A stretch of DNA of 64,000 nucleotides from Patescibacteria group bacterium UBA2196 (GCA_002328025.1 DCVE01000014.1:5882-69881); one strand, 5' to 3'. Positions 12,827 to 38,979 are shown, counted from the first letter of the stretch. Program-made: numbers and translations. Notes: generated by a model not told the origin, from the sequence alone.

Positions 12827-14290
12827 ATGTTAAATAAATTCTATCTTACCACAACCCTGCCCTATGTCAATGCCGAACCGCACATTGGTTTTGCTTTGGA
12901 AATAATTCAGGCTGATGTTATTGCGCGCTGGCAAAAACTAAATGGCGCTGAAGTTTTTTTTAATACTGGCACAGATGAGCATGGTTTAAAAATTTATCGC
13001 AAAGCTTTAGAGTTGGGTTTAGACCCACAAAAGTATTGTGATGAGTATGCGGCTAAATTTGATAATTTAAAAAGCGCTTTAAATCTAAGTTATAATAATT
13101 TTATTCGCACCACAGACGATCATCACATAAAGGCTGCTCAAGAATTTTGGCAACGTTGTGAAAAAGCTGGTGATATTTACAAAAAAAATTATAGCGTCAA
13201 ATATTGCGTGGGTTGTGAATTGGAAAAAACTGAATCAGAATTAGTTGATAATAAATGTCCGGTCCATCCCAATTTAGAATTAGAATTAATTGCTGAAGAA
13301 AATTATTTTTTCCGTTTTTCCAAATATCAAAAACCACTTTTAGAACTATACGAAAAAAATCCAAACTTTGTTGTGCCCGCGCACAGGTTAAATGAAATTA
13401 AAAATTTTGTGGAGGCTGGTTTAGAAGATTTTAGTATTTCGCGTCTTAAAGAAAAAATGCCTTGGGGCGTAGAAGTGCCCGGTGATGAAACACAAGTTAT
13501 GTATGTTTGGTTTGACGCATTGGTTAATTATATTTCTTGTTTAGGTTGGCCAGAAAATTTAGAAAAATTTAATAATTTTTGGCCGGGTATGCAAGTAGCT
13601 GGTAAAGACAATTTACGTCAGCAAACTGCCATGTGGCAGGCCATGTTGATGTCGGCAGGACTCCCCAATTCTAAACAAATTTTTATTCATGGTTTTATAA
13701 CTTCAGGTGGCGAAAAAATGAGTAAATCTCTTGGCAATGTGGTTAATCCTTTTGAATTGGTAGCTAAATTTGGCACTGATGCCTTGCGTTATTATTTACT
13801 GGCCAAGATTTCTCCAGCTGAAGACGGTGACTATACTGAAGAAAAATTTAAAGAAGCCTATACTGCTGATCTTTGTAATGGCCTTGGTAATTTAGTATCT
13901 AGAGTATCAAACTTGATGGAAAAAAACACCGTTTCTTTGCCATTAGCACACCTCTCTTTGTCATCCCGACGAAAGTCGGGATCCAGTGCTATTAGTGATG
14001 ACAAATTGTCTAAAGAATTTTCCGAAAAACTCTCCCATTATAAATTCAATGAAGCCTTAGAAATTCTTTGGACCAAACTGCGCGCTTGCGATGAAACCAT
14101 TACTAAAACTGAACCATGGAAAATTAAAGATCAAGAAAGGCTAAAAGAAATTTTAGAGCCAGTTGCAGAAGATATTTTAAATGTGGCTATTTTGCTTCAA
14201 CCCTTTATGCCCTCCACGGCTGAAAAAATTATTAAAACATTCACCGCAGAAAAAATTATCAAAGGGGAAATACTTTTCCCCAGAGTATAA
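12827..14290 (+). CDS. metG: Methionyl-tRNA synthetase
   Basis: PYVNAEPHIGF (HIGH variant), GTDEHGLKI, zinc knuckle CVGC..CPVH, GEKMSKSLGN. Confidence 0.9.
   Translation: MLNKFYLTTTLPYVNAEPHIGFALEIIQADVIARWQKLNGAEVFFNTGTDEHGLKIYRKALELGLDPQKYCDEYAAKFDNLKSALNLSYNNFIRTTDDHHIKAAQEFWQRCEKAGDIYKKNYSVKYCVGCELEKTESELVDNKCPVHPNLELELIAEENYFFRFSKYQKPLLELYEKNPNFVVPAHRLNEIKNFVEAGLEDFSISRLKEKMPWGVEVPGDETQVMYVWFDALVNYISCLGWPENLEKFNNFWPGMQVAGKDNLRQQTAMWQAMLMSAGLPNSKQIFIHGFITSGGEKMSKSLGNVVNPFELVAKFGTDALRYYLLAKISPAEDGDYTEEKFKEAYTADLCNGLGNLVSRVSNLMEKNTVSLPLAHLSLSSRRKSGSSAISDDKLSKEFSEKLSHYKFNEALEILWTKLRACDETITKTEPWKIKDQERLKEILEPVAEDILNVAILLQPFMPSTAEKIIKTFTAEKIIKGEILFPRV
13950..13990. repeat. GC-rich palindromic mini-element inserted in-frame in metG (tgtcatcccgac-gaaa-gtcgggat)
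   Basis: perfect 8-bp stem with GAAA loop at 13963-13982; GC-rich island in AT-rich gene; left arm matches the terminal repeat of the 41271-41402 element. Confidence 0.6.
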
Positions 14291-14341
14291 TTAAATTTAT
14301 TTTTAAAATTATTTTTCCATTTTTATGGAAAATAAAAATTT

Positions 14342-15832
14342 ATGAAAAAAACATTTTTCTTCTTCTTACTGGCGTGTTTTTTAATGGCACCGGCTATCAC
14401 CAAGGCCGATAATTTGTCTGATTTTATTATTACTGATATTACCTTAGAAGATTCAGACGGACTCTGGGTTTATTTTCAAAACATTGGTGGTAGTACAGTT
14501 TTTGGTAAATTGCCAATTGAAATCGTCGATTTGGATACCAGTGAATCATATTATCAAGAAAATGAACAAATGTATTGGACGAACACGACTTACAAACTTT
14601 ATCTCGGGATGCTTAAAAACCGCAATCGTAGTAGTTACCGCTTACAGGCCATAATAGATACGCACAATTTTTTTAGTGAATCTAATGAAAATAATAATTC
14701 TTTAATTAAAACTTTTTATAAACCAGTGCCGTTTTGTACAGAAACTGATGGCGGTAGAAATTATGATCAAGCGGGTAGTGTTAGCGGCATTGCTGAATGG
14801 GGTAAGGGTTCACCATCGTCAAATTTTGTTGATAGTTGTCTTGATAGTTTAAAATTAAACGAAATGTTTTGTGGTGCAGATAAATATGTATATCAGGAAG
14901 CTTACACTTGCCCACATGGATGTTCAAATGGTGTTTGTATAAAACTGCCAGAAAATCCACCCGTTGTTGAGGTAAAAAAACCAGATCTTGCCATTCAAAA
15001 CGTACAAACAATTGATTTAAGAAAAAACCGTGGACAATTTGACTGGCGATTAACATACGAAGCTATTAATTTGGGAGAAACTAATGTCAATAAACCTTTT
15101 AAGATTATTGGTAAAAATTTAACTAATAATCAAATTCTGGGCGAGATAACCCCGGATTCTGGTGAATTTAAGCCAAATGTTTTGCTTTCTTCGCCCGGGT
15201 ATTATTTTGAGGGAAAACTTGGTAAAGAATTTATATACGGGGTAAACAACATAGAAATTTGCATTGATGCTAACAACATCATCTCAGAAAGTAATGAAAA
15301 TAATAACTGCCTTACAAAGCAGATAGATGCTACTCAATATAATATAGATAGATCGTTTGCTAAAAGATTAGCAGGAAAGTTGCTTTTGGGTGTTGAACAG
15401 GGTGGCGCAATCTGGTATGTAGATTTAATTAATAATCAACGTCATTTAGTAACTTGGGACAACGCCATAACTTTATTTCAAAAATTTGCTCTTGGTATTT
15501 TGGATCAGGATTTATTGAAAATCCCAGCCGACTTATCCAGCGTTAAAGCGGAATTAGATTCTGATAATGATGGATATAGTGATGTTATTGAGTTGCAGAA
15601 CAATTATAATCCTTATCTTTTAGGGGGTAATAAATTTAAAATTGACAAAAAATTAGCTTCTCGGTTAAGAGGTAGGTTTTTATTGCAAGTTGATCAACAT
15701 GGACCAATTTGGTATGTAGCTCCAAATGGTTTTCGATATAATATTCATTGGAATAATTTAATGGATGTTTTTACCAAACTTTCACTGGGTATTAATAATT
15801 CTGATTTAAACAAAATAGAAGTAGCACCATAA
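14342..15832 (+). CDS. secreted repeat protein (signal peptide, internal repeats, DxDxDG calcium-binding-like motif)
   Basis: N-terminal MKKTFFFFLLACFLMAPAITKA signal; repeated ESNENNN(S/C)L and two ~60-aa C-terminal repeats (GxxLLxVxQxGxIWYVxxxxxR). Confidence 0.5.
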   Translation: MKKTFFFFLLACFLMAPAITKADNLSDFIITDITLEDSDGLWVYFQNIGGSTVFGKLPIEIVDLDTSESYYQENEQMYWTNTTYKLYLGMLKNRNRSSYRLQAIIDTHNFFSESNENNNSLIKTFYKPVPFCTETDGGRNYDQAGSVSGIAEWGKGSPSSNFVDSCLDSLKLNEMFCGADKYVYQEAYTCPHGCSNGVCIKLPENPPVVEVKKPDLAIQNVQTIDLRKNRGQFDWRLTYEAINLGETNVNKPFKIIGKNLTNNQILGEITPDSGEFKPNVLLSSPGYYFEGKLGKEFIYGVNNIEICIDANNIISESNENNNCLTKQIDATQYNIDRSFAKRLAGKLLLGVEQGGAIWYVDLINNQRHLVTWDNAITLFQKFALGILDQDLLKIPADLSSVKAELDSDNDGYSDVIELQNNYNPYLLGGNKFKIDKKLASRLRGRFLLQVDQHGPIWYVAPNGFRYNIHWNNLMDVFTKLSLGINNSDLNKIEVAP

Positions 15833-15851
15833 TTTTATAATTTTTAAAAAC

Positions 15852-16376
15852 ATGACTCTCACTATTTTAGATTTTGTATTAGTTATAATTTTAGTCGCTT
15901 TTGGCGCGGGCGGATTTGCTTTTGGTTTAATTCACGCACTGGGAGCCTTGGTTGGCACAGTTGTGGGTGCTGTGGTGGCGGCCAATTATTTTGACCTCAT
16001 TTCTGGTATGATTGGTTTACCATTTGGCATGCATCCAAATCTAGTTAAAATCATTAGTTTTGTTTTAATTTTTATTGTGGTGAGCCGTTTGGTTAGTTTG
16101 GTTTTTTATCTTTTTGACAAATTTTTTAATGTTTTAACCATTATTCCTTTTTTAAAAATCATTAATCGTTTGGCCGGTGCAATTTTGGGGTTAATTGAAG
16201 GCGGATTGGCTTTGGGTATATTATTGGTTTTTGCAGTTAAATTTCCGTTTGCTGGTTTTTTAGAACACACGATTTCTTCTTCCAATATTGCTAAGTTTTT
16301 ATATTTTTGTGGCCAAACCCTCTTACCGTTGTTACCAGATTTTTTTAGACAGGCCAAAGATATTATTAAAATATGA
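15852..16376 (+). CDS. CvpA-family membrane protein
   Basis: N-terminal hydrophobic architecture typical of colicin V production protein family. Confidence 0.55.
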   Translation: MTLTILDFVLVIILVAFGAGGFAFGLIHALGALVGTVVGAVVAANYFDLISGMIGLPFGMHPNLVKIISFVLIFIVVSRLVSLVFYLFDKFFNVLTIIPFLKIINRLAGAILGLIEGGLALGILLVFAVKFPFAGFLEHTISSSNIAKFLYFCGQTLLPLLPDFFRQAKDIIKI

Positions 16377-17170
16377 AATTAATTGATTCGCATACTCACT
16401 TAAATTTTCCGGATTTTAAGGATAATTATCAAAAAATTATTGCCGATTGCTTAAAAAAAGGAATCGGCGTTGTTAACATTGGCGCTGATTTTGAAAGTTC
16501 AAAAAGAGCTGTCGAAATTGCCAATGAATATCCCGATCAGCCAGTTTATGCTTCCATTGGCATGCATCCAGAAAGTATTAATGAAAATTTTGAGGCTGAA
16601 AAATTTCAAAATTTGATTAATAATAAAGTTGTGGCAGTGGGCGAGATTGGTTTAGAATATTATTTTGATAACAATCATGACATAATAGAAAAACAGAAAG
16701 AATTATTTAAACAGCAATTAAATTTTGCTATAGAAAACAATTTGCCTGTAATTTTACATGCCAGAGGGAGTAAAGATAATTCCCATGGTGCCTATTTAGA
16801 TATTGTTGATGGCATCAATCAACTACAAATTGTCGGTGTCGCCCACTGTTTTGGCGCTAACGAGAAAATCGCTCAAAAGTTTTTAGATTTGGGTTTTTAT
16901 CTTGGTTTTACCGGTATTATAACTTTTAAAAATAAGTCGCTAGAAAGTTTAAGAGAAGTGGTAAAATATTGTCCCTTGGATAGGATTCTAATAGAGACTG
17001 ATGCGCCGTGGCTCACTCCAGAGCCTCATCGTGGAGAACAAAACTTACCACAATATGTAGAGTTGGTAGCGCAAAAAGTTGCTGAACTAAAAAGTTTAAC
17101 TTTAGAACAAGTCTGTCAAAAAACCACCAAAAATTGGCAACAACTATTTAAGAAATGGCATGACATATAA
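16373..17170 (+). CDS. tatD: TatD-family metal-dependent hydrolase/DNase
   Basis: MKLIDSHTHLNFPDF, GEIGLEYY, ETDAPWL. Confidence 0.85.
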   Translation: MKLIDSHTHLNFPDFKDNYQKIIADCLKKGIGVVNIGADFESSKRAVEIANEYPDQPVYASIGMHPESINENFEAEKFQNLINNKVVAVGEIGLEYYFDNNHDIIEKQKELFKQQLNFAIENNLPVILHARGSKDNSHGAYLDIVDGINQLQIVGVAHCFGANEKIAQKFLDLGFYLGFTGIITFKNKSLESLREVVKYCPLDRILIETDAPWLTPEPHRGEQNLPQYVELVAQKVAELKSLTLEQVCQKTTKNWQQLFKKWHDI

Positions 17171-17807
17171 ATATTGGCAGAAAATAAATTTAAAAAATTT
17201 TGATGTCAAAAATATTGTAGAAAAATATAATACCGGTTTTGTATTGACCAGAATTAAAAATGAAATGCATCAAATTAAGAGTTTACGTTTTGGTTTAAAA
17301 CAGTTTTCTTTATCTTCCGAGAACCGGCGTATTTTGCGAAAAGGTGAAGATTTTCAAATAAAGATACTGGAATTGCCGCTTGGTATGGAAAAGTACGATT
17401 GGCACATCCATGCTGTGGGTTCAAAATTTTATTGCGACCGTTTTGGTGCTCACATCTTTAGCGCTAACAAAATTAAAGAACTTATTACTGATCCGCTAAA
17501 ATCAAATTTCAATCGTTTAATTGTTTTGCAAGATAAAAAAAACAACCGCTCAATCGGTTGGTGCATTGGTTTCGAGGCAGCTGATTTGTTTCATTATAGT
17601 TACCCTTTTTATGAGCTGGAATACCTTCAAAAAAATATTGGCATGATTATGCTCTTAAAAACAATTTTATTGATCAAAGATAAAAACATTAGTCAATTTT
17701 ATCTGGGTTCAATCTGGGATAAAAAAGCTAAATACAAATTACAACTCCAGCCAGCCTATTTTTTTGATGGCAAGTCTTGGCAGACAACAGACAACCTAGA
17801 GTTTTGA
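17160..17807 (+). CDS. Bpt/ATE C-domain-like protein (arginyl/leucyl-tRNA-protein transferase-like)
   Basis: FYLGSIWDKKAKYKLQLQPAYFFDGKSW resembles the ATE_C motif YLGYWI..KM.YK..F.P.E. Confidence 0.35.
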   Translation: MTYKYWQKINLKNFDVKNIVEKYNTGFVLTRIKNEMHQIKSLRFGLKQFSLSSENRRILRKGEDFQIKILELPLGMEKYDWHIHAVGSKFYCDRFGAHIFSANKIKELITDPLKSNFNRLIVLQDKKNNRSIGWCIGFEAADLFHYSYPFYELEYLQKNIGMIMLLKTILLIKDKNISQFYLGSIWDKKAKYKLQLQPAYFFDGKSWQTTDNLEF

Positions 17808-17810
17808 GAG

Positions 17811-17969
17811 TTATTTGTCGTTTTCTACCACTTTGACATTGGCGGTGTTGCCATCAATTTCAGTTATCATGACAGTCATGCCACACTCTGGACAGTCTAA
17901 AAACGTACCGACAGACACTTCTTCCAATAATTCGTTTAAATTGTTGCATTCGGGGCAAGAATAATTCAT
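17811..17969 (-). CDS. LysW-like zinc-ribbon small protein (52 aa), not in the ORF track
   Basis: MNYSCPECNNL...DCPECGMTV two CPEC knuckles as in LysW/amino-group carrier proteins; ends NDK rather than EDWGE. Confidence 0.45.
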   Translation of the reverse strand: MNYSCPECNNLNELLEEVSVGTFLDCPECGMTVMITEIDGNTANVKVVENDK

Positions 17970-18030
17970 AGATTTTTTTTAATATTAAATAAAAGTTTTT
18001 ACATTTTAATTTTAATTCTTTGTCTAAAAC

Positions 18031-18912: not shown

Positions 18913-18918
18913 TTTTTT

Positions 18919-20196: not shown

Positions 20197-20213
20197 ATCC
20201 TTATTATTTTTTT

Positions 20214-28223: not shown

Positions 28224-31200
28224 ATGTCAACTCATGATTTAAATGAACAACAAAAACAGGCAGTTACTCATGGTAGTGGGCCGCTTTTAATTGTGGCTGG
28301 CGCTGGAACTGGTAAAACCACAGTTATTACCGAGCGGGTGGCGTGGTTGATTGAACAAGGTTTGGCACAAGCTGATGAAATTTTAGCTCTGACGTTTACC
28401 GATAAGGCAGCGAGCGAGATGGAAGAAAGAGTAGATCGTTTGTTACCATATGGCTATGTTGATTTGTGGATTATGACTTTTCATGCTTTTGCTGAACGTT
28501 TGTTGCAGCAACATGGTTTGGATATTGGTTTATCAACCAATTTTAAATTATTAAATCAAACCGAACAATGGCTTTTGGTGCGTCAAAATTTGGATCGTTT
28601 TAATTTGGATTATTATCAGCCTTTGGGTAATCCGACCAAGTTTATTCATGCTCTAATTAAACATTTTTCTCGTTGTAAAGATGAAGAAATTTGGCCGGAA
28701 GACTATTTAAAATATGCTGAGAATTTAAAAATTAATTTGGATAGTATGGAGGCAAGTGGAGGAGTTATGTTAAAACATGAAAATATTAAAACATTAAAAC
28801 CAGACCCCCTCCGCCCTGCGGGGCGACTCCCCCTTATCAAAGGGGAGATGGCCGAAGCTCCCCTCCTTTATAAGGAGGGGGTGGGGGGAGGTAGTGAAGA
28901 AATAGACACTTCAGAAATTAAAAGAGTGGAAGAAATTGCTAATGCCTATCATCTTTATCAACAATTGTTATTAGAAAACAGCTCTTTGGATTTTGGTGAT
29001 CTCATTAATTACACCTTAAAACTTTTGCGTACCCGGCCGCACATCTTAAAACTCTATCAAGAAAAATTTAAATATATTTTGGTGGACGAATTTCAAGATA
29101 CAAATTTTGCTCAGTATGAGCTAATTAAGCTTTTGGCCAGTGGCCACGGCAATTTAACCGTGGTGGGCGATGATGATCAATCAATTTATAAATTTCGCGG
29201 TGCTTCGGTGGCCAACATTTTACAATTTAAGGATGATTTTAAAAATGCTCATGAAATTTATTTAATTCACAACTATCGTTCTTGTCAAAATATTTTGGAT
29301 TTAGCCTATAATTTCATTCAACTCAACAATCCCGAACGTTTGGAAGTTAAACTCAAACAAATTTCTGACAATGTTTCAAATTTAAGCAAAAAACTTTTTG
29401 CCCAGTCAGTAGAAACAGGCAGCATTGAACTTTTGCAAGCCGAAGATGCTGGTGCTGAAGCTGTCATGGTGGTAGAAAAAATTTTAGCTTTAAAGGCGAG
29501 TGATCCAACCCTCACTTGGAATGATTTTGCTGTTTTAGTGCGTGCCAATTCGCAAGCGGAAACGTTTTTGTTAGCTTTACGTATGCAAGATTTGCCGCAT
29601 ACGTTTGTGGCGTCCAAGGGGTTGTATCAAAAAGAAGTAATTATGGACGTGTTGGCCTATCTAAAATTATTAGATAATTATCATGAATCATTGGCTTTGT
29701 GGCGTGTGTTAAATTTACCAACACTAAACATTGTCACTGAAGATCTAATGGAAATTAGTCGTTTTGCTACTCGTAAAGCCTGGTCGTTATTTGAATGTTT
29801 AAAACAAATTAATTTAGTTATTGCTATTTCTGAAGACACCAAGCAAAAAGTCACTAAAATTTTAGGTTTGCTAAATAAACACACCGCTCTGGCCAAAGAA
29901 AAAAGCGTGCGGCATGTTGTTCTGGCTTTTTTACAAGATTTTAATTACAGTCAATATTTGCTCAAAAAAAATGATGTGCAATCTTTTAGTTATTTAAATC
30001 AATTGGGAAAAAAGATTGATGATTTTTCTGCCCGAGGTGGAGATCAATCATTTGATGAACGCAGTGTAAAAAATTTTATCAATTTAATTAGTCTAGAGCT
30101 GGAAGCCGGCGAAGAGGGTAGTTTGATTCCAGAATCTGATGAGGGGCCAGAAGCCATAAAAGTTATGACCGTACATGCAGCCAAGGGTTTGGAATTTAAA
30201 TATGTTTTTGTGGTTGGTTTGGTGGATAAAAGATTTCCTTCGCTAGAAAGAAAAGAATCCATTGAATTACCCATAGAATTAATAAAAGAAAAAATTCCAA
30301 CCGGCGATATTCATTTGCAAGAGGAAAGACGACTTTTTTATGTCGCTATGACGCGTGCCAAACAAGGTTTATTTTTTACAGTGGCTGAAAATTATGGTGG
30401 CAAAGAACGTAAAAAATTATCGCGTTTTTTGTTTGAAATTGATTTGGCCGTGCCAGAAACCATAAAAATTAAAAGCAAAAAAAATATTTTAGATGACGAC
30501 TTAAATTTAAAGCCGGCCATGGCAGTTTCTAAAAACCCAACCACCAAGACAACACCTTCGATTGAAAACAGTCATTTTTCTTTTTCACAACTCAAAGCTT
30601 TTGCTATGTGCCCTTATCAATATTATTTAAGTTTTGTGGTTAAGGTGCCGGTCATGGGTAAAGCCAGTTTTAGTTATGGCAAGACCATGCACTCTACTTT
30701 ACAAAAGTTTTTTACGTTAATTAAAGATAGTAATATTTCTACGCAAAACGAACTTTTTGCTGGCACTCAAAAATCGATAGTTAATAATAAAACTAAAAAA
30801 ATTCCAACCTGGGAACAGGTGTTAAATTTTTATAACGAATCTTGGATAGATGATTGGTATGTTGATAAAAAACAAAAAGACGAATACAGAAAATTAGGTG
30901 AAAAATCTTTAAGAAAATTATATACCCAGTTGCAGGAATTTGGTATTCCCGAGACGCAATTTTTGGAAATTGGTTTTAATTTCAAATTAGCAACTCGCAC
31001 CATTAAGGGTTTTATTGATCGAGTGGACAAGCTGCCCGGTGGTGGATTTGAAATAATAGATTATAAAACCGGCGCGTCCAAAAATGAAAAAACTTTAGAA
31101 AAAGATCAATTGTTAATTTATCAAATTGCAGCTGTTGAGAATTTACATTGGCCAGTAGAAAAATTAACTTTTTATTATCTTGATGATGGCACGGCGGTTT

Positions 31201-31355
31201 CTTTTTTAGGCACCGCTAAGGAAGTTGATAAGATGAAAGAAAAAATTATAGTCATTACTGATAAAATTATGCAGGCTGATTTTTCTGCCACACCATCAGT
31301 CTTTAATTGTCATTATTGTGATTTTAAAGAAATCTGCCAATATCGCGAATTATAA
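28224..31355 (+). CDS. UvrD/PcrA-family helicase fused to a C-terminal PD-(D/E)xK (RecB/Cas4-like) nuclease domain
   Basis: QQKQAV..AGAGTGKTT; C-terminal QLKAFAMCPYQYY...IDRVDK...EIIDYKTG...CHYCDFKEIC. Confidence 0.8.
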   Translation: MSTHDLNEQQKQAVTHGSGPLLIVAGAGTGKTTVITERVAWLIEQGLAQADEILALTFTDKAASEMEERVDRLLPYGYVDLWIMTFHAFAERLLQQHGLDIGLSTNFKLLNQTEQWLLVRQNLDRFNLDYYQPLGNPTKFIHALIKHFSRCKDEEIWPEDYLKYAENLKINLDSMEASGGVMLKHENIKTLKPDPLRPAGRLPLIKGEMAEAPLLYKEGVGGGSEEIDTSEIKRVEEIANAYHLYQQLLLENSSLDFGDLINYTLKLLRTRPHILKLYQEKFKYILVDEFQDTNFAQYELIKLLASGHGNLTVVGDDDQSIYKFRGASVANILQFKDDFKNAHEIYLIHNYRSCQNILDLAYNFIQLNNPERLEVKLKQISDNVSNLSKKLFAQSVETGSIELLQAEDAGAEAVMVVEKILALKASDPTLTWNDFAVLVRANSQAETFLLALRMQDLPHTFVASKGLYQKEVIMDVLAYLKLLDNYHESLALWRVLNLPTLNIVTEDLMEISRFATRKAWSLFECLKQINLVIAISEDTKQKVTKILGLLNKHTALAKEKSVRHVVLAFLQDFNYSQYLLKKNDVQSFSYLNQLGKKIDDFSARGGDQSFDERSVKNFINLISLELEAGEEGSLIPESDEGPEAIKVMTVHAAKGLEFKYVFVVGLVDKRFPSLERKESIELPIELIKEKIPTGDIHLQEERRLFYVAMTRAKQGLFFTVAENYGGKERKKLSRFLFEIDLAVPETIKIKSKKNILDDDLNLKPAMAVSKNPTTKTTPSIENSHFSFSQLKAFAMCPYQYYLSFVVKVPVMGKASFSYGKTMHSTLQKFFTLIKDSNISTQNELFAGTQKSIVNNKTKKIPTWEQVLNFYNESWIDDWYVDKKQKDEYRKLGEKSLRKLYTQLQEFGIPETQFLEIGFNFKLATRTIKGFIDRVDKLPGGGFEIIDYKTGASKNEKTLEKDQLLIYQIAAVENLHWPVEKLTFYYLDDGTAVSFLGTAKEVDKMKEKIIVITDKIMQADFSATPSVFNCHYCDFKEICQYREL
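28803..28890. repeat. composite GC-rich palindromic insertion (three hairpin modules) in-frame in the helicase gene
   Basis: cgccc-tgcg-gggcg; ctcccc-cttatcaaa-ggggag; cccctcctt-tat-aaggagggg (28860-28880), ends gggaggt; encodes PLRPAGRLPLIKGEMAEAPLLYKEGVGGG. Confidence 0.6.
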
Positions 31356-31664: not shown

Positions 31665-31765
31665 TTAAGATTAGCCAAAAAAAGCGTTTATTTACATTTG
31701 CCGTTATTTTTCTTTTTTGGTATAATAAAAACACTTACTTTAAGGTCTAAAACAACCAAAAAGCC

Positions 31766-32143
31766 ATGACTTTAGCCCGTTATTTATTTTTTATGACTGT
31801 GGCGACTTTGTTGTGTTGGGGCGCATTAGCGCTGGTTGTGTTTTTTGTTGATCCAAACGAATCTGGTCTAATTGGTATTATAATTTTCTACGCAGCCGAA
31901 TTTTTTGCTGTCATTGGCACAGCTTCTTTGGTTGGTTTTTTATGTCGTTATTATTTTCAACCCAGAGAATTTTCTCACATTCAAGTTAGAAATTCTTTTC
32001 GTCAGGCAGTGTGGTTGGGTTTTTTAATTACTGGCGCCTTGATTTTACAAAGTTTAAATCTGGTCACTTGGTGGATTTTATTAATTTTGGTTTTGATTTT
32101 AACTGTGTTGGAAATGCTTGTTCTATCACTTAAAAAACAATAA
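31766..32143 (+). CDS. hypothetical membrane protein
   Basis: four predicted TM helices. Confidence 0.3.
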   Translation: MTLARYLFFMTVATLLCWGALALVVFFVDPNESGLIGIIIFYAAEFFAVIGTASLVGFLCRYYFQPREFSHIQVRNSFRQAVWLGFLITGALILQSLNLVTWWILLILVLILTVLEMLVLSLKKQ

Positions 32144-32148
32144 TTTTT

Positions 32149-33192: not shown

Positions 33193-33201
33193 AATCAATT
33201 T

Positions 33202-34251
33202 ATGTCAGTTGCAAAAATTTTTATTCTAACAGTCTTGGCTTTCGTGGGCGCCTTTTGGTGGGCGCCAATTTTGGCACGCTTTTTAACCAAGCACAAAATG
33301 TGGAAAGAAGCGCGTCAGCTTACCACCGATGGTCGGGTGTTGGTGACATTTCAAAAAATAGAAAAAGATCATAAAATTAAAACTCCTCGTGGAGGCGGTC
33401 TTTTAATTTGGGTTACAATTTTATTTTTGGCACTTTTGATGTCTGTGCTTGATAATTTTTTTCCCGGAGTTTTTAGTAATTTAGAATTTTTATCACGTTC
33501 CGAAACATGGTTGCCACTTGGAATTTTGGTTTTGGCTGGAGTGCTTGGTTTTGCTGATGATATTTTAACAGCCAAAGGCAAAGGTAAATATTTGGGTGGT
33601 GGTATGAGTTTAAAACGCCGCATTGTTATGGTTTTTGTAATTGGTTTGGTTGGCGCCTTGTGGTTTCATTTTAAACTTGGTTGGGACACCATCCACCTTC
33701 CATTTTTTGGTGATTTTTATATTAATGGTTTTTATATTCCTCTGTTTGCTATTACCATGGTGGCGGTTTTTTCTTCAGGTGTTATTGATGGCATTGATGG
33801 TCTTTCGGGGGGAGTTTTTGCTCCGCTTTTTGCCACCTATGGTGTGATTGCGTTTTTGCGTGGCCAAACTGATTTAGCTGCTTTTTGTGCCATGATCGCC
33901 AGCACGCTGGCAGTATTTTTGTGGTTTAATGCTCCGCCAGCACGTTTTTATATTGGTGAAACAGGTATTTTGGCTTTGACTACAACTTTAACTGTGGTTG
34001 CTTTTATGACCAACGCTGTTTTGTTATTGCCGTTGGCTGGTGTTATGTTGGTCATCACCACCGCTTCGGATATTATTCAACTTACGCATCGTAAAATTAA
34101 AGGTCATAAATTGTTTCCTGCGGCACCCATTCATCACACCTTTCAACTGCAAGGTATAAAAGATGAAACCATTGTTATGCGTTATTGGATTATTACTGGC
34201 ATGGCTTGCATTACCGCAATTATGATTTATTTATTGGATAAAGGATTATAG
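33202..34251 (+). CDS. mraY: MraY/WecA-family phospho-sugar transferase (likely MraY)
   Basis: GFADDIL, PAAPIHHTFQL...RYWII. Confidence 0.65.
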   Translation: MSVAKIFILTVLAFVGAFWWAPILARFLTKHKMWKEARQLTTDGRVLVTFQKIEKDHKIKTPRGGGLLIWVTILFLALLMSVLDNFFPGVFSNLEFLSRSETWLPLGILVLAGVLGFADDILTAKGKGKYLGGGMSLKRRIVMVFVIGLVGALWFHFKLGWDTIHLPFFGDFYINGFYIPLFAITMVAVFSSGVIDGIDGLSGGVFAPLFATYGVIAFLRGQTDLAAFCAMIASTLAVFLWFNAPPARFYIGETGILALTTTLTVVAFMTNAVLLLPLAGVMLVITTASDIIQLTHRKIKGHKLFPAAPIHHTFQLQGIKDETIVMRYWIITGMACITAIMIYLLDKGL

Positions 34252-34253
34252 TT

Positions 34254-35004
34254 ATGTATCAAATTAAAGAATTATTGAAATATAAAGACTTACAGCATGC
34301 CACTTCAACATTAGAAGACGGAAATATGAGTTTTAAGTTTGATGATGAAAAAACGGTTTTTAATAACAGAAAAAAAATTTTTTAAAAAAATAAAAATAAA
34401 TTCCAAAGATGTTATTGATATGGGGCCTGTGGTTGACAAAGCAAATAAGGTGGTTTTTGTAAAAAAAAAAGACGGTTTGAATTCTTTGGATCAGAAAATT
34501 GAGCCAGTTTGGGGTGATGCCTTAATAACAAACAGAAAAAAATATTATTTAGCCATGAGTTTTGCTGATTGCTTTGGAATAATTTTTTATACACCTAAAA
34601 AAAATGTTTTAGCCCTGGCCCATGCTGGTTACGTTCCAATCAGTGCTGGTATTATTGCTAGGACATTATCTAAATTGAAAAAGGATTTTAAAATAAACGC
34701 AGAAGATTTGTTTTGTGTGGTAACTCCGGGAGCACAAGATTGTTGTTTAAAATATAAAAAAGTTTTTAAATCGGTTTTACAGACAAAAAAAGCCACAGAG
34801 CATATTTATAGACGACAAGGTTATTATCATCTTGATCTTTTAAAATGGATACTGGATGATTTAAAAGATGGGGGTATCAACGAGGTGGTGATAAGTAATT
34901 TTTGCTCCGCGTGTGGTAATAAGAATGTTTTTTATTCAAAAGAAAAACAAAATAAAGGTCTGCAAAAGAAAGGTAGAAATATGTTAATTGTTGGTATGAG
35001 ATAA
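34254..35004 (+). pseudogene. pgeF: pgeF/yfiH (DUF152 purine nucleoside phosphorylase/peptidoglycan editing factor) split by a frameshift in an A8 run
   Basis: frame A (34254-34385) encodes LQHATSTLEDGNMSFKFDDEKTVFNNRKKIF; frame B (34339-35004) carries DALITNRKK...MSFADCFGII...ALAHAGY; 7 instead of 8 A at 34370-34377 joins them. Confidence 0.55.
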
Positions 35005-35010
35005 AAATTT

Positions 35011-35829
35011 ATGGAAAATTTATTTTATAAAATTAAATATTATTTTGGCACTATTTATCGCGGATTAATCGGTCGTTTTCATAATATTTTTGATAAAGCG
35101 CCAGCAATTAAAAGCGGGGCTGAATGGTATTCTTTGGGCGATTCAACTCAGGGTCGCAATATTCGGTGTTATAAATTTGGACAAGGTGAAAAAAAAATAT
35201 TACTAATGGGTGGAATTCATGGCAATGAAGTTGGCACGGTTAAACTTGCGCATAATTTAATTAATTGGTTATGTGGCAACCAATTAAGATTTTCCAATCT
35301 AACAATTTTTGTTGTGCCGTGTTTAAACCCAGATGGAGCTGAAGTTGCCAGACAATTTCCAGACTATAAGCATCGTGGTCGGATTGGTCGTCTCAATGCG
35401 CGCGATGTGGATTTAAACCGCAACTTTCCAACAACTGATTTTATGAGCCAGACAACTTGGAAAACCGGTCGCAATTATCATGATGAAACCATCGCGGTTT
35501 TTGGGGGAGACTTTGCTGGCTCTGAAGCAGAAACAAAAATAATTATGGACCTAATTAAAAAAGAAAACATCAAAAATATCATCGCATTTCACAATATGGG
35601 CAGTGATGTTATGCCGGTGAGTGGTGATGCGGTGGCAGAAACTTGGGCTCAGATTTATTTTAAAAAAGCCAAATTTAAAATCAGATATAATGTCAATTTG
35701 TCCGGTAGCTTGTCCAGTTGGGCCAAAGAAAATAATATTCATTATTTAACCGTCGAAGGTAGTTCACGCTGGGGAAGTGATTGGCATCGACAGTATAAGG
35801 CCATAGAGGAAATATTGGCTTCCATGTAG
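35011..35829 (+). CDS. M14-family zinc carboxypeptidase (murein peptide amidase-like)
   Basis: GGIHGNEVG, NRNFP, IAFHNMG. Confidence 0.6.
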   Translation: MENLFYKIKYYFGTIYRGLIGRFHNIFDKAPAIKSGAEWYSLGDSTQGRNIRCYKFGQGEKKILLMGGIHGNEVGTVKLAHNLINWLCGNQLRFSNLTIFVVPCLNPDGAEVARQFPDYKHRGRIGRLNARDVDLNRNFPTTDFMSQTTWKTGRNYHDETIAVFGGDFAGSEAETKIIMDLIKKENIKNIIAFHNMGSDVMPVSGDAVAETWAQIYFKKAKFKIRYNVNLSGSLSSWAKENNIHYLTVEGSSRWGSDWHRQYKAIEEILASM

Positions 35830-35870
35830 AATATAGAGATATTACTTTTATCATTTACATGTAGGCGTGA

Positions 35871-36416
35871 ATGATAAAACAACAACACAACATATTTATG
35901 CGCAAAAAAGAAAATAATTACGCTTTCATTGATAGTCAAAATTTGAATTTAGGTGTGCAAAACTTAGGTTGGAAATTGGATTATAAAAGATTCATGATTT
36001 ATCTAAAAGATAAGTATGGAGTTTTGGTTGCTTATTTGTTTATTGGTTATTTGCCAGAAAATCAAGATTTATATTCATCTCTTCAAAGAGCTGGTTATTA
36101 TTTGGTTTTTAAACCCACTCTGCCGGATAAAGACGGGGAGATAAAAGGTAATGTTGATGCGGATCTGGTTTTACAAACAATGCTTGATTATGATAAGTTT
36201 GATAAAGCAATTATTGTTTCAAGTGATGGAGATTTTTATTCTCTGGTTAAATATTTATATAAACAAAATAAACTTAAATGTGTTTTGAGTCCTTATGTTA
36301 AAACTTGCTCGGTTTTATTAAAAAGAACTGCTCGGGAAAAAATTGTTTTTATGAATAATTTAAGGCAAAAATTAGAATATAAAAGAAAAACACCGCTAAG
36401 GGACAGAACCACTTAG
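35871..36416 (+). CDS. NYN/LabA-like (PIN-like) domain protein
   Basis: YAFIDSQNLN...VSSDGDFYSLVKYL. Confidence 0.6.
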   Translation: MIKQQHNIFMRKKENNYAFIDSQNLNLGVQNLGWKLDYKRFMIYLKDKYGVLVAYLFIGYLPENQDLYSSLQRAGYYLVFKPTLPDKDGEIKGNVDADLVLQTMLDYDKFDKAIIVSSDGDFYSLVKYLYKQNKLKCVLSPYVKTCSVLLKRTAREKIVFMNNLRQKLEYKRKTPLRDRTT

Positions 36417-36519
36417 AGGTATTTTTCGTATGTATACTGGTTTAAGAATAACATGGTATATAAAAAAAGTCAAACACAAAGCTGTGGATAAATTGTAGAA
36501 TAAATAATTATTAAACTAT

Positions 36520-38979
36520 ATGTTTCTTTCACTAAACTGGCTTAAAACTTACGTTAATTTACCCAAAGGCCTGACAGTCAAACAACTGGCGCACGATTTA
36601 ACCATGTCCACCGTGGAAGTGGAGGGCGTGGAAAATCAAGCTGAAAAGTTTGAGAATATTGTAATTGGAAAAATTGTGGAAATAAAAGCTCATCCCAATG
36701 CTGACAAATTAAAAATTGTCATGCTTGATATTGGCAAAAAAGATTTAGTGCGAGTTGTTTGTGGTGGTACAAACTTGACAGTCAACATGTTGGTGGCCGT
36801 GGCTTTACCTGGCGCCAAAGTCCGCTGGCATGGGGAAGGGAATTTGGTAGAACTGCAAGCCACAGAAATTCGTGGGGAAAAATCTTTTGGCATGATTTGT
36901 TCGGCTAATGAAATTGGTTTAGAAAAAATCTTACCCTGTGGAGAAAAAGAAATTGTGGATTTGAGTGGTTTTTATCCCCTCCTTACGAAGGAGGGGCGCC
37001 TCGACGGAGTCGGGCGGGGAGGTTTAAAACCCGGTCAAAATTTGGCCGAAGCCCTTGGTTTGGATGACACCATTGTTGAATTAGATAATAAATCCATTAC
37101 GCATCGGTCTGATTTATGGAATCATTATGGTGTGGCCAGAGAATTGGCAGTTATTTATAAAACCAATCTTAAACCGTTGGTTTTAAGTCAAGCTAAACAA
37201 AATAATAATAAAAAAATAAAAATTAGCATTGAAGACAAAAAATCCTGTGATCGTTACATGGGTTGTGTTATAAAAAATATTAAAATTGCGCCTTCGCCAG
37301 ATTGGCTGGTAAAAAGTCTGGAAGCAGTAGGTTTGCGTTCAATTAATAACATTGTGGACATTACCAATTATGTAATGTTGGATGTGGGCGAACCTATGCA
37401 CGCGTTTGATATGACCAAATTAAATCAACCACAGATTATTATTCGTAAGGCTCAAAAAAATGAGAAAATTCTAGCTTTGGATGGTGTGGAGAGAAAGTTA
37501 GACGAGTCAATGTTAGTTATTGCGGATAATAAAAACCCTATTGCCATTGCTGGTGTGATGGGCGGAAGTGAGTCTGCGGTGGATGAAAAAACTACCACCA
37601 TAATTTTGGAAGCAGCACATTTTGATGCCGTGACCGTACGTCGCGCAACACAAAAACTAGATTTAAGAACAGATGCTTCTAATCGTTTTGAAAAAAGTTT
37701 GGACCCATGTCTGGTTGAAACTGGTATGCAGAGGGCTTTGACTTTGATTAAAGCAGTAATTCCAAACACTGAAGTTGAAAGTTTGGTGGATGTTAATTAT
37801 GTAAAAAAAGAAAAAATAACTATTACCGCCGAACATGCATATTTAGAAAAAAAAATTGGCCAAAAATTTGAATCGCAAGAAATAGTTAAAATTTTAGAAC
37901 GCCTAGGGTTTGTTGTCAGTAAAAAAACAAAATCAAAAGAAATTGTTTATACTTTGGAAGTCCCCACCTGGCGTTCTAATGGCGACATAAAATACCCGGA
38001 AGATATCGTGGAAGAAGTGGCCAGAATTTACGGCTATGATAATTTACCAGCGCAAACGCAAACCATTGCAATGCATAAAGCTGTCTGGCAGCCAGCCAAG
38101 GAATTAGAACGTCAAATTAAGGTTTTTTTGGCTAATAATGCGGGCATGCAAGAGGTGTTTTGCTATCCGTGGGCTGATACAAAAACCTTGAATGCCTTGG
38201 GTTTTTATGGTAAAATTAGAAAGACAGAAAGTGCTGGCGCAGGTGACAGTAGTTGTCTTGAAACCAGTTTAATTCCCAATCTTCTAAAAGCCACTGAAGA
38301 TAATTTGCGTTATTTTAGTGAGTTTAAAATTTTTGAAGTTGCCAAGATTTTTCCAGCTTCCGGTAGCGAAAAAAAAATGTTAGCTTGTGCGATTGCGACT
38401 GAAAAAAATAAAGATGCTTTTTTAATCATCAAAGGTATTCTGGAAAGTTTGTTAAAAGATTTAAGAATCAAGATTTATGATTTAAAAAATGGAGAAACAC
38501 CAACTTATATTAGCAAAGAAAAAAAATTAAATATTTTTTTAAAAGACAAGAACAGTGGTTGGTTGGGAATGCTGGAAAAAAATATTTATCAGAAATTTAA
38601 TTTTAAAAACAGAGAAATTTGTTTGGTTGAAATAGATTTGGAAGAATTGATTGTAAGTGCTCTTGTGGCGCCAGAAAAAAAATATGCAGTCCTGCCACAA
38701 TTTCCTAGTGTGCAAAGAGATTTGTCGTTTGAATTGGAATGGTCAACAAAATGGGAAAACATAAAAGATGAGATCCTGCGACTCGCTCCGTCTGCCCAAG
38801 ATAAATTAATACAAACAATAGAATTTTTATCAGAATTTGATGCGGGTGAAAAAAAATCTATTGCTTTACGCACTGTTTATCAAGCCAATCGGACATTAAA
38901 AGATGAAGAAGTAGAAGTAATTCAAAATAAAATAATAAAATTAATGCAAGAAAAATTTAATGGGAAATTGAGAGTCTAA
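36520..38979 (+). CDS. pheT: Phenylalanyl-tRNA synthetase beta subunit
   Basis: tRNA-binding N-domain, B3/4, B5 and FDX-ACB-like C-terminus. Confidence 0.9.
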   Translation: MFLSLNWLKTYVNLPKGLTVKQLAHDLTMSTVEVEGVENQAEKFENIVIGKIVEIKAHPNADKLKIVMLDIGKKDLVRVVCGGTNLTVNMLVAVALPGAKVRWHGEGNLVELQATEIRGEKSFGMICSANEIGLEKILPCGEKEIVDLSGFYPLLTKEGRLDGVGRGGLKPGQNLAEALGLDDTIVELDNKSITHRSDLWNHYGVARELAVIYKTNLKPLVLSQAKQNNNKKIKISIEDKKSCDRYMGCVIKNIKIAPSPDWLVKSLEAVGLRSINNIVDITNYVMLDVGEPMHAFDMTKLNQPQIIIRKAQKNEKILALDGVERKLDESMLVIADNKNPIAIAGVMGGSESAVDEKTTTIILEAAHFDAVTVRRATQKLDLRTDASNRFEKSLDPCLVETGMQRALTLIKAVIPNTEVESLVDVNYVKKEKITITAEHAYLEKKIGQKFESQEIVKILERLGFVVSKKTKSKEIVYTLEVPTWRSNGDIKYPEDIVEEVARIYGYDNLPAQTQTIAMHKAVWQPAKELERQIKVFLANNAGMQEVFCYPWADTKTLNALGFYGKIRKTESAGAGDSSCLETSLIPNLLKATEDNLRYFSEFKIFEVAKIFPASGSEKKMLACAIATEKNKDAFLIIKGILESLLKDLRIKIYDLKNGETPTYISKEKKLNIFLKDKNSGWLGMLEKNIYQKFNFKNREICLVEIDLEELIVSALVAPEKKYAVLPQFPSVQRDLSFELEWSTKWENIKDEILRLAPSAQDKLIQTIEFLSEFDAGEKKSIALRTVYQANRTLKDEEVEVIQNKIIKLMQEKFNGKLRV
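36974..37022. repeat. GC-rich palindromic insertion in-frame in pheT
   Basis: cccctcctt-acg-aaggagggg (36976-36996), the same 9-bp arms as the helicase copy; then ctcgac-gga-gtcggg; ends gggaggt; encodes PLLTKEGRLDGVGRGG. Confidence 0.6.

What the first reader, a model, noticed from the sequence alone, without database searches (positions are those of the whole stretch)
13950..37022. Family of short GC-rich palindromic elements inserted in-frame inside essential genes (metG, helicase, pheT), resembling Rickettsia palindromic elements
Three otherwise AT-rich housekeeping genes each contain a 40-90 bp GC-rich island built of hairpins. The 9-bp arm pair cccctcctt/aaggagggg recurs with a 3-nt loop in the helicase (28860-28880) and in pheT (36976-36996). 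The motif cgac-g[ag]a-gtcggg recurs in metG (13963-13982, a perfect 8-bp stem with GAAA loop) and in pheT (37001-37015). Both larger copies end in gggaggt. All are read in-frame without stops: they add PLLYKEGVGGG in the helicase, PLLTKEGRLDGVGRGG in pheT and SSRRKSGSS in metG, and they use the same frame for ccc-ctc-ctt = PLL in both copies. Such recurrence cannot be chance in this base composition. It implies a mobile or selfish palindromic element tolerated inside protein-coding sequence, presumably on surface loops.
Basis: seen in the sequence. Interest (0 to 1): 0.75.

Follow-up and report, generated by a model that had tools for sequence, protein, structure and literature searches.

The report
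Triplex-forming DNA repeats inside essential genes
The GC-rich islands inside three housekeeping genes of this small-genome (Patescibacteria) bacterium are copies of two short structured DNA repeats found across many bacterial phyla, here inserted in-frame and apparently translated as floppy protein loops; the repeat types are already known, but finding them inside essential genes, repeatedly at the same spots, is unusual.

Summary
In detail: three loci hold the only strong GC-rich hairpins in 64 kb (0.7 expected). But they are two unrelated repeat families, not one, and neither is lineage-specific. [quoted passage not shown] Across 237 such hairpins from many phyla the mirror tail is perfect in 68% (shuffled pattern 0%), and variant arms co-vary with their tails (77 vs 4). 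The helicase carries an inverted TM pair; pheT carries one TM whose linker is itself a hairpin. The metG hairpin is a 27-nt dRS3/REP-like unit, also widespread. All are in-frame, absent from the closest orthologues (84-86% identical), and coincide with the only long low-confidence loops in AlphaFold models. The same sites in pheT and metG are occupied independently in several lineages, in both orientations and in two frames. The resemblance to Rickettsia palindromic elements is an analogy, not membership. The way these repeats spread remains unknown. Interest is moderate.

The parts
13960..13986 (+). Type-B repeat unit in metG: GTC | ATCCCGAC GAAA GTCGGGAT | CCAG. It is translated as (L)SSRRKSGS(S). 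The full insert relative to empty orthologues spans about 13940-13990 and includes an extra 21 nt (13942-13962) bounded by tctttgcc/tctttgtc.
   Evidence: z -4.3. The same 20-mer with conserved GTC/CCAG flanks occurs in >=120 metagenome stretches. The identical hairpin is at the same site in L009, and the site is empty in syntenic L010. pLDDT<50 at residues 374-390.
28803..28847 (-). Helicase TM1, an intrastrand triplex motif on the antisense strand. On the + strand it reads GACCCCCTC | cgccctgcggggcga (linker hairpin) | CTCCCCCTT atc AAAGGGGAG. There is one stem mismatch, and the third strand matches the mirror at 8/9.
   Evidence: The orthologous copy in L008 was scored as a TM (10577-10627, 8/9). 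The window copy was parsed by eye because of its single stem mismatch.
28860..28893 (+). Helicase TM2 on the sense strand: CCCCTCCTT tat AAGGAGGGG gtgg GGGGAGGTA. Together with TM1 and the 12-nt spacer (28848-28859) it forms an inverted ('palindromic') TM pair. The pair encodes ...DPLRPAGRLPLIKGEMAEAPLLYKEGVGGG...
   Evidence: third strand 9/9.
36976..37024 (+). pheT TM on the sense strand: CCCCTCCTT acg AAGGAGGGG | cgcctcgacggagtcgggc (19-nt linker forming a small hairpin) | GGGGAGGTT. It encodes residues 153-168, PLLTKEGRLDGVGRGG.
   Evidence: 9/9; z -4.1; pLDDT<50 at 153-167. Absent from L001. 91% identical over 54 nt to an intergenic copy in L036.
41273..41399 (.). Intergenic (gyrB-secE) 127-nt palindromic element. 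Its ends, TGTCATTCCGAC ... CTCGGGATGACA, resemble the type-B unit. It looks like an inverted doublet (REPIN/MITE-like) with larger inner hairpins.
   Evidence: (z -5.6, 11-bp terminal stem); gene identities.

Best explanation
The islands are copies of two short, structured, G+C-rich DNA repeats that occur in many bacterial phyla. In this AT-rich, gene-dense Patescibacteria genome they lie in-frame inside housekeeping genes.

Type A (helicase, pheT) is a G/C-rich class II intrastrand triplex motif. It has a pyrimidine arm, a loop, the complementary purine arm, a linker (2-5 nt or a small hairpin), and a third G/A/T segment. The third segment mirrors the purine arm, so it can lie antiparallel to it with G*G-C, A*A-T and T*A-T triads.

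Type B (metG, and the gyrB-secE spacer) is a 20-bp GNRA-loop hairpin with GTC/CCAG flanks. It is dRS3/REP-like and is often found as inverted doublets.

Shown: the architecture, the arm/third-strand covariation, the wide distribution, presence/absence between close orthologues, the in-frame reading, and the position in predicted disordered loops.

Inferred: the inserts are transcribed and translated as part of the host protein, giving P/L/K/E/G- or S/R/K/G-rich flexible loops that are tolerated, not needed. As single-stranded DNA (lagging-strand template, transcription bubble) type A folds into a very stable triplex. That stalls polymerases and promotes slippage, deletion and copying. This would explain the patchy gain and loss, the nested copies and the repeated occupancy of the same permissive sites. 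The enzyme or process that creates new copies is unknown; no transposase is linked.
For: **Architecture.** Of 147 exact hairpin copies from >=120 genome stretches in many phyla, 84% (124) have a GGGG(A/T)GGT tail on one side. Among 237 Y/R hairpins, the mirror of the purine arm under the triad code is found within 45 nt perfectly in 67.5% and with <=1 mismatch in 90.7%. A direct-repeat pattern gives 16% and 36%; composition-matched shuffled patterns give 0% and 2.5%. For 82 variant-arm hairpins, an arm's own mirror beats other arms' mirrors 77 to 4. The window copies score 9/9, 9/9 and 8/9.

**Known class.** Holder et al. 2015 (PMC4666352) define TMECO as CCCTCNCCC-N3-6-GGGNGAGGG-N3-GGGNGAGGG, and several of my variant hits match it. 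They show triplex folding by CD and NMR (Tm 70-82 C), inverted pairs, no transposon association, and local instability.

**Insertion polymorphism.** The pheT site is empty in L001 (84% identical). It is filled by a sense TM in the window and L002, by a different sense TM in L004, by an antisense TM in L256, and by an unrelated hairpin in L255. The metG site is empty in L010, and the empty motif NLSLKLDxxSD is conserved across the tree; filled states sit on >=6 branches in two frames. A nested hairpin interrupts the helicase TM in L008. A TM pair is present in the L008 PALP gene but absent from the window's orthologue.

**Dispersal.** The pheT TM, linker hairpin included, is 91% identical over 54 nt to an intergenic copy in L036, with no other homology.

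**Loops.** MetRS 374-390 and PheT 153-167 are the only long pLDDT<50 stretches.

**Not an artefact.** The identical PheT with its insert occurs in >=4 independent samples.

**Type B.** >=120 metagenome stretches with conserved flanks and inverted partners. It is in-frame in MnmA, Wzy, RadA and CobN elsewhere.
Against: Triplex folding of these particular sequences was not measured. Holder et al. saw no triplex in duplex DNA or by in vivo DMS footprinting, so the structure may be only transient. Translation of the inserts is inferred only from intact reading frames. Gene callers and protein searches favour intact ORFs, which biases the sample towards in-frame copies. No target-site duplication or clear insertion junction was found: the filled and empty sites have diverged, and part of the ancestral sequence is replaced instead of simply interrupted. 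Repeated occupancy of one site could reflect targeting, recombination between lineages, or selection alone; these could not be separated. Only 64 kb of this genome was seen, and the window holds no intergenic type-A copy.
Confidence: 0.8

Rival explanations
1. The segments are native coding sequence. They are flexible Gly/Pro/Lys-rich linkers selected for a protein-level role, and the palindromy is incidental.
For: They lie at domain boundaries or hypervariable linkers. The helicase insert is conserved as a peptide across a clade at 62-86% identity.
Against: The same DNA occurs between genes in unrelated phyla. It is read in different frames and in both orientations inside genes. It is absent from the nearest orthologues. 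The third segment co-varies with the purine arm according to a nucleic-acid pairing code, not a codon pattern.
Confidence: 0.03
2. The inserts are not translated. They are removed from the mRNA or skipped by the ribosome, like tiny introns or translational-bypass elements (T4 gene 60 or mitochondrial byp elements; recalled from memory).
For: They are strong local structures inside coding sequence. No expression data are available.
Against: Every genic copy examined keeps the host frame open with no stop codon: helicase, pheT in five lineages, metG in many lineages, PALP, glycosyltransferase, Lgt, MnmA, RadA, CobN and Wzy. That would be unnecessary if the segment were excised or bypassed. No take-off/landing codon pairs or splice-like boundaries were seen. 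Caveat: there is ascertainment bias towards intact ORFs.
Confidence: 0.05
3. They are RNA-level regulatory hairpins selected to pause ribosomes at domain boundaries. The purine arm AAGGAGG is Shine-Dalgarno-like, and the pyrimidine arm CCTCCTT mimics the 16S rRNA 3' end.
For: The SD/anti-SD-like arms can be read directly from the sequence. The positions lie between Pfam domains.
Against: Genic copies occur in both orientations: helicase TM1, the L008 PALP pair and L256 pheT. Variant arms that are not SD-like, such as GGGAGAGGG and AAAGGGGGA, behave in the same way. The mirror third strand makes no sense for Watson-Crick RNA folding, and purine-motif triplexes are reported not to form in RNA (PMC4666352). 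The closest orthologues do without the inserts.
Confidence: 0.05
4. They are a lineage-specific family homologous to the Rickettsia palindromic elements.
For: They are palindromic, inserted in-frame into housekeeping genes, variable between lineages and located in loops. These are the behaviours described for RPEs.
Against: RPEs are about 150 bp, fall into ten families each with a conserved peptide, and occur in Rickettsia. The units here are 27-49 nt, fall into two unrelated families, occur in many phyla, and lie mostly between genes.
Confidence: 0.03

Closest known systems
G/C-rich class II intrastrand triplex motifs (TM; TMECO; earlier 'PIT elements' and BoxC of E. coli) - Holder et al. 2015, PMC4666352
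   Same: Pyrimidine stem, loop, complementary purine stem, loop, and a mirror purine/T stem of about 9 nt. G/C-rich and multi-copy. Occurs singly or as inverted pairs. No linked transposase. Presence varies between close relatives. Several hits in my scan match the TMECO pattern itself.
   Different: The window's arms are CCCCTCCTT/AAGGAGGGG, not CCCTCNCCC/GGGNGAGGG. The pheT copy has a 19-nt hairpin as loop 2, whereas ITxF allowed 1-6 nt. The E. coli K-12 copies are 'always located intergenically', but here all three copies are in-frame inside essential genes. The host is Patescibacteria, whereas the 262 TMECO genomes are proteobacterial.
Rickettsia palindromic elements (RPE) - Ogata et al. 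2000/2002, as summarised in PMC10969869
   Same: Palindromic repeats inserted in-frame into unrelated housekeeping genes of a reduced genome, at positions compatible with protein folding, and differing between related lineages.
   Different: RPEs are about 150 bp, fall into ten families each with a conserved peptide, and are confined to Rickettsia. The units here are 27-49 nt, with no conserved peptide (several frames and orientations), spread across phyla, and mostly intergenic outside this group.
Neisseria dRS3 repeats / NIMEs (ATTCCC-N8-GGGAAT) - Bentley et al. 2007, PMC1797815
   Same: The metG hairpin is a 20-bp unit with 6-bp terminal inverted repeats around 8 central bases (ATCCCG-ACGAAAGT-CGGGAT). 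Partner copies in metagenome loci, such as ATTCCCGCGAAAGCGGGAAT, fit the dRS3 consensus exactly.
   Different: The termini differ from ATTCCC/GGGAAT at 2 of 6 positions. There are no RS-element arrays in the window. The host is not Neisseria. The copy is inside a gene.
REP sequences and REPIN doublets mobilised by RAYT transposases (Bertels and Rainey 2011, PMC3116915, seen only as title and abstract)
   Same: Short GC-rich hairpins, multi-copy, and frequently arranged as inverted doublets separated by a short spacer. This applies to type-B partners, to the window element at 41273-41399, and to TM pairs.
   Different: REPs are extragenic by definition and lineage-specific, with one RAYT per genome. 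No RAYT-like gene recurs near the 120 TM loci, and none was looked for genome-wide.

Membership tests
Intrastrand triplex motif repeats (class II, C-G-G; TM/PIT/BoxC) | Pyrimidine-rich stem A and complementary purine-rich stem B form a hairpin (stems 6-15 nt) | tested here: met
   Perfect 9-bp stems at 28860-28880 and 36976-36996; 9 bp with one mismatch at 28827-28847.
Intrastrand triplex motif repeats (class II, C-G-G; TM/PIT/BoxC) | Third stem C mirrors stem B under the purine-motif code (G*G-C, A*A-T, T*A-T) | tested here: met
   9/9 for helicase TM2 and pheT; 8/9 for helicase TM1 (and manual parse). Family-wide: 67.5% perfect against 0% for shuffled patterns; own mirror beats others 77 to 4.
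Intrastrand triplex motif repeats (class II, C-G-G; TM/PIT/BoxC) | Short loops (ITxF: 1-6 nt; Hoyne et al.: 0-10 nt) | tested here: inconclusive
   Helicase TM2 has loops of 3 and 4 nt (met). The same hairpin-linker form is common in other phyla.
Intrastrand triplex motif repeats (class II, C-G-G; TM/PIT/BoxC) | Dispersed, multi-copy, present in many genomes | tested here: met
My own estimate of the chance expectation is about 17 hits for 596 Gb.
Intrastrand triplex motif repeats (class II, C-G-G; TM/PIT/BoxC) | Folds into a triplex as single-stranded DNA (CD/NMR) | not testable with these tools
   ViennaRNA models only Watson-Crick and wobble pairs. Holder et al. measured TMECO only.
TMECO sensu stricto | Consensus CCCTCNCCC-N3-6-GGGNGAGGG-N3-GGGNGAGGG | tested here: not met
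   The window arms are CCCCTCCTT/AAGGAGGGG and CTCCCCCTT/AAGGGGGAG. They are sequence variants of the class, not TMECO.
Rickettsia palindromic elements | About 100-150 bp element belonging to one of the RPE families, with a conserved encoded peptide | tested here: not met
   Units are 27-49 nt (91 nt for the helicase pair). The same DNA is read in several frames and orientations. Definition.
Rickettsia palindromic elements | Sequence similarity to RPE consensus sequences | not tested
   No RPE consensus or Rickettsia genome was available in the collections used.
Rickettsia palindromic elements | In-frame insertion into unrelated housekeeping ORFs, variable between lineages, at structurally tolerated positions | tested here: met
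Neisseria dRS3 | 20-bp unit ATTCCC-N8-GGGAAT | tested here: not met
   The metG unit is ATCCCG-N8-CGGGAT: the same 6+8+6 geometry, but 4 of 6 terminal bases match. Related copies elsewhere do match.
REP/REPIN-RAYT | Inverted doublets of a short hairpin repeat | tested here: met
   Type-B copies with inverted partners 10-25 nt away are seen in many metagenome loci. The window element 41273-41399 folds as one long hairpin. The helicase carries a TM pair.
REP/REPIN-RAYT | A cognate RAYT (Y1 transposase) gene in the genome | not tested
   Only 64 kb of the genome was seen. Among the 120 TM-bearing loci, the recurrent neighbours are only response regulators, ABC ATPases, SDRs and the like.
MITE | Terminal inverted repeats plus a target-site duplication | tested here: inconclusive
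   The 41273-41399 element has an 11-bp terminal stem. No clear duplication was seen at the pheT or metG junctions. The direct repeat tctttgcc/tctttgtc next to the metG unit is suggestive only.

The most novel reading that the evidence does not exclude
Triplex motifs and dRS3-like hairpins are delivered to particular positions by a process that is directed by structure or microhomology and needs no transposase, for example template switching at forks stalled by the folded repeat, or uptake-and-recombination of repeat-bearing DNA. On this reading, the repeated independent occupancy of the same codon-level sites in pheT, metG and the helicase, in both orientations and in different frames, reflects targeting and not merely tolerance. 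In gene-dense Patescibacteria this would act as a built-in generator of loop variation in essential proteins.
Probability: 0.15. Interest if true: 0.75.

Novelty: new member of a known kind. Interest (0 to 1): 0.5.

Why it matters
How intrastrand triplex repeats spread, and what they do, has been open since BoxC/PIT elements were described. The published work found them only between genes in E. coli and found no mobility genes. Here the same class, and a second hairpin repeat, sit inside essential genes of a reduced genome. Filled and empty sites occur in close relatives, and several independent occupancies share the same site. That provides natural insertion and excision junctions in conserved, alignable sequence, where the mechanism can be read off by comparative genomics. 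[quoted passage not shown] Two practical points follow. Such inserts inflate and distort protein alignments of marker genes (aaRS, helicases) used for phylogeny of candidate phyla. And the hairpin-linker form of the motif is missed by the published triplex finder.

Tried and rejected
1. The generic repeat finder was swamped by AT-rich low-complexity matches and did not show the elements. I replaced it with custom hairpin scans.
2. Rfam: no family covers the elements in the window or in 18 element-bearing loci.
3. Linked mobility gene: clustering 1404 ORFs from 120 loci gave only ubiquitous superfamilies, with no transposase.
4. Literature search by sequence strings (GGGGTGGTT, AAGGAGGGG and others) gave only irrelevant hits. 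A search for palindromic elements in Patescibacteria gave nothing.
5. I considered that homopurine/homopyrimidine arms are specially stop-free in all six frames. Rejected: TMs average 4.6 open frames, and composition-matched shuffles 4.5, so this is a G+C effect only.
6. One family covering all three genes: rejected, because metG has no Y/R arms and no mirror tail.
7. The shared PLL frame as meaningful: rejected, because other genic copies use other frames and strands.
8. Tail pairing with the pyrimidine arm by Watson-Crick rules, or a G-quadruplex: the mirror A-to-A/T covariation fits neither. Holder's NMR excluded a quadruplex for TMECO.
9. Target-site duplications: none convincing.
10. I could not determine whether L036 belongs to the window's genome; only the 54-nt element matches.

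Full report
**1. Observation**

The window is 35% G+C. The reported motifs are all present:
- ATCCCGAC-GAAA-GTCGGGAT at 13963-13982.
- CCCCTCCTT-N3-AAGGAGGGG at 28860-28880 and at 36976-36996.
- cgacggagtcggg at 37002-37014.
- A ggggaggt ending on both larger islands.

The 21-nt pattern has two hits against none in 100 shuffles, even with three mismatches allowed. A custom scan for perfect GC-rich hairpins (stem >=7 bp, >=5 G.C) finds only these three loci in 64 kb, against 0.68 hits in shuffles. The hosts are MetRS (12827-14290), a UvrD-type helicase fused to a PD-(D/E)XK nuclease (28224-31355), and PheT (36520-38979). The organism is a Patescibacteria (CPR) bacterium close to Kuenenbacteria (source names). 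The identical PheT gene, insert included, was assembled in at least four independent samples, so it is not an assembly artefact.

**2. The inserts are lineage-variable and sit at hot spots**

*PheT.* The closest orthologue (P0002, 84% identical) reads DLSALK-NIKPGQN, with AT-rich DNA and no island, as do most of the 60 orthologues aligned. The same site is occupied in several lineages:
- A sense copy with CCCCTCCTT arms in the window and in L002 (58% orthologue).
- A sense copy with CCCTCTCCTT arms, plus a second hairpin, in L004.
- An antisense copy in L256.
- An unrelated hairpin, GGTTCAAG/CTTGAACC, in L255.

*MetRS.* The orthologues P0122, P0124 and P0125 (85-86% identical; L010 is syntenic with the window) are empty, while L009 (85%) has the identical hairpin at the same place. 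On a tree built without the insert region, the empty motif NLSLKLDxxSD recurs throughout, so empty is the ancestral state. Filled states lie on at least six branches and in two reading frames (SRRKSGS-type and CHPE..DP-type).

*Helicase.* The site is a hypervariable linker. The whole island is shared by a clade at 62-86% identity. Other lineages have different inserts, including independent PLL.KEG..GGGG peptides. In L008 one hairpin is interrupted by yet another hairpin.

**3. What the helicase and pheT elements are**

The hits come from Chlamydiota, Bacteroidota, Nitrospirota, Acidobacteriota, Proteobacteria (tandem arrays in Thiomargarita), Planctomycetota, Chloroflexota and many CPR classes. 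My estimate of the chance expectation is about 17 hits in 596 Gb.

The flanks show a conserved larger element: 84% of 147 copies have GGGG(A/T)GGT(T) on one side, and often a small GC hairpin lies in between. That tail is the mirror image of the purine arm: AAGGAGGGG is followed by GGGG[A/T]GG[T][T]. I tested this on 237 perfect pyrimidine/purine hairpins:

| Pattern searched within 45 nt | Perfect | <=1 mismatch |
|---|---|---|
| Mirror of purine arm (G to G, A to A/T) | 67.5% | 90.7% |
| Direct repeat of purine arm | 16% | 36% |
| Composition-matched shuffled pattern | 0% | 2.5% |

For 82 hairpins with other arm sequences, an arm's own mirror beat other arms' mirrors 77 to 4. Examples are GGGAGAGGG with GGGTGAGGG, AAAGAGGGG with GGGGAGATT, and AGGAGGAG with GAGGTGGT.

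This is the code of an antiparallel purine-motif triple helix. It identifies the elements as the G/C-rich class II intrastrand triplex motifs of Holder et al. 2015 (PMC4666352), earlier called PIT elements or BoxC. That paper defines TMECO as CCCTCNCCC-N3-6-GGGNGAGGG-N3-GGGNGAGGG and reports the following:
- Triplex folding of the single strand by CD and NMR, with Tm 70-82 C.
- No triplex signal in duplex DNA or by in vivo DMS footprinting.
- Inverted pairs.
- No association with transposons, and no promoter or terminator activity.
- Elevated local rearrangement.
- Strictly intergenic location in E. coli K-12.

**4. Anatomy in the window (plus reading)**

- pheT, 36976-37024: CCCCTCCTT acg AAGGAGGGG | cgcctcgacggagtcgggc | GGGGAGGTT. 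It is on the sense strand, the third strand matches 9/9, and the 19-nt linker folds as a hairpin.
- Helicase TM2, 28860-28893: CCCCTCCTT tat AAGGAGGGG gtgg GGGGAGGTA (9/9).
- Helicase TM1, 28803-28847, on the opposite strand: GACCCCCTC | cgccctgcggggcga | CTCCCCCTT atc AAAGGGGAG. It has one stem mismatch and a third strand at 8/9.

The helicase island is therefore an inverted TM pair, as described for E. coli. The pheT element, linker included, is 91% identical over 54 nt to a copy in an AT-rich intergenic spacer of another low-GC genome (L036). Nothing else is shared between the two sequences.

**5. The metG element is a different repeat**

It has no pyrimidine/purine arms and no mirror tail. 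Its exact 20-mer occurs in at least 120 metagenome stretches with G+C from 0.26 to 0.71. The flanks are conserved (GTC on the 5' side and CCAG on the 3' side). Very often an inverted partner such as CTGGATTCCGGCTTTCGCCGGAATGAC follows 10-25 nt away. The metG copy carries the full 27-nt unit (13960-13986).

The unit has the 6+8+6 geometry of Neisseria dRS3 (ATTCCC-N8-GGGAAT; PMC1797815), but its terminal bases differ. Some partners match dRS3 exactly. The doublet form resembles REPINs.

The window's gyrB-secE spacer holds a 127-nt palindromic element (41273-41399) with ends TGTCATTCCGAC / CTCGGGATGACA. It folds with z = -5.6 and looks like a doublet of this family.

Type-B units are also in-frame in MnmA, RadA, CobN and a Wzy-type protein in other contigs.

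**6. Genic residence**

In related CPR loci, triplex motifs occur both between genes and inside other genes: a PALP enzyme in L008 (a pair that the window's orthologue lacks), a glycosyltransferase in L007, and Lgt in L051 (three copies). Both orientations occur. Across all phyla most copies are intergenic. In low-GC genomes only 7 of 46 lie in long open frames, and 2 of those 7 are the window's own.

AlphaFold models built from orthologue alignments are confident overall: MetRS has mean pLDDT 87 and PheT 85.8. The only long pLDDT<50 stretches are MetRS 374-390 and PheT 153-167. These match the inserts; the TM encodes PheT residues 153-168. The inserts are therefore predicted to be disordered loops between folded elements.

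**7. Mechanism**

*Shown:* the architecture, the covariation, the dispersal, the presence/absence polymorphism, the intact frames and the loop location.

*Inferred:*
- The inserts are translated as tolerated flexible loops.
- The triplex (type A) or hairpin (type B) forms in transiently single-stranded DNA and provokes stalling, slippage, deletion and copying. This would explain the patchy distribution, the nested copies and the hot spots, in line with the instability reported by Holder et al.
- The source of new copies is unknown. No transposase is linked and no target-site duplication was found.
- An RNA-level role is unlikely. Genic copies occur in both orientations, and purine-motif triplexes are reported not to form in RNA.

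**8. Comparison and novelty**

The elements work like Rickettsia palindromic elements: selfish palindromes tolerated in protein loops. They fail the membership criteria on size, peptide conservation and host. Type A is a member of the published triplex-motif class, with different arms.

As far as the searched literature shows, three things are new:
- In-frame residence in essential genes of Patescibacteria.
- Repeated independent occupancy of the same sites.
- The hairpin-linker form of the motif.

I rate this as a new member of a known kind, of moderate interest.

Noticed in passing
window 41273-41399: A 127-nt GC-rich palindromic element in the gyrB-secE spacer. Its 11-bp terminal stem is TGTCATTCCGA/TCGGGATGACA, and it has inner hairpins TCCGCC-agtt-GGCGGA and CGGCCT-tca-AGGCCG. 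It looks like an inverted doublet related to the metG repeat.
   Followed up: partly
window 13942-13962: Relative to L009, the window's metG insert has an extra 21 nt (attagcacacctctctttgtc) bounded by the near-direct repeat tctttgcc/tctttgtc. This may be a slippage duplication next to the hairpin. Downstream, 'gtgatgacaaa' is an inverted match to 'tttgtcat' at the element's 5' edge.
   Followed up: no
L255 1403-1435, 1454-1474, 1986-2007 and L256 1397-1429, 1448-1468, 1980-2001: pheT genes of two relatives carry further in-frame hairpins at other sites: a perfect 15-bp stem tgcgtttgataaagc-AAA-gctttatcaaacgca near residue 300, plus cctgcct-N7-aggcagg and gagacgcaa-GATA-ttgcgtctc. These explain their extra length (852-854 aa). 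The window's pheT lacks them.
   Followed up: no
Helicase orthologues P0248, P0267, P0269, P0278: These orthologues are 1343-1420 aa long and carry precomputed Hint/intein domains (PF01079, PF14890). Some relatives therefore have an intein in the same helicase gene, so this gene hosts several kinds of selfish insert.
   Followed up: no
L079 7048-7312 (Thiomargarita sp. contig DZAL01000039.1): Head-to-tail tandem array of complete triplex motifs with a 41-nt period (CCCCTCCTTACCAAGGAGGGGTTGGGGGTGGTTAAGTTCCT). This organisation is different from the single and inverted-pair forms.
   Followed up: no
window about 50500-54000: Cumulative GC skew rises steadily from position 1, peaks near 52-54 kb and then falls. 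Gene orientation switches from + to - at about 50.5 kb. This is consistent with a replication terminus (skew maximum) in that interval. All three triplex motifs lie on the arm where genes and the G-rich strand are on +.
   Followed up: no
window 42704-43630 (repeats 43071-43624): ORF with internal tandem repeats of about 87 nt (29 aa). Pfam identifies it as a DKNYY-family repeat protein (E = 1.4e-47).
   Followed up: yes
L051 3454-3781 (Candidatus Andersenbacteria contig DATDYZ010000057.1): Three triplex motifs of two arm types, in both orientations, lie within about 330 nt inside one open frame that matches Lgt (prolipoprotein diacylglyceryl transferase). The Pfam match is split into two stretches.
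   Followed up: partly
L008 10526-10750: The helicase TM2 of this relative has lost its purine arm to a nested insertion (cctgcctcgccaagtcaaggcgggg) while keeping the pyrimidine arm and the third strand. This is a snapshot of repeat-into-repeat insertion inside a coding sequence.
   Followed up: partly
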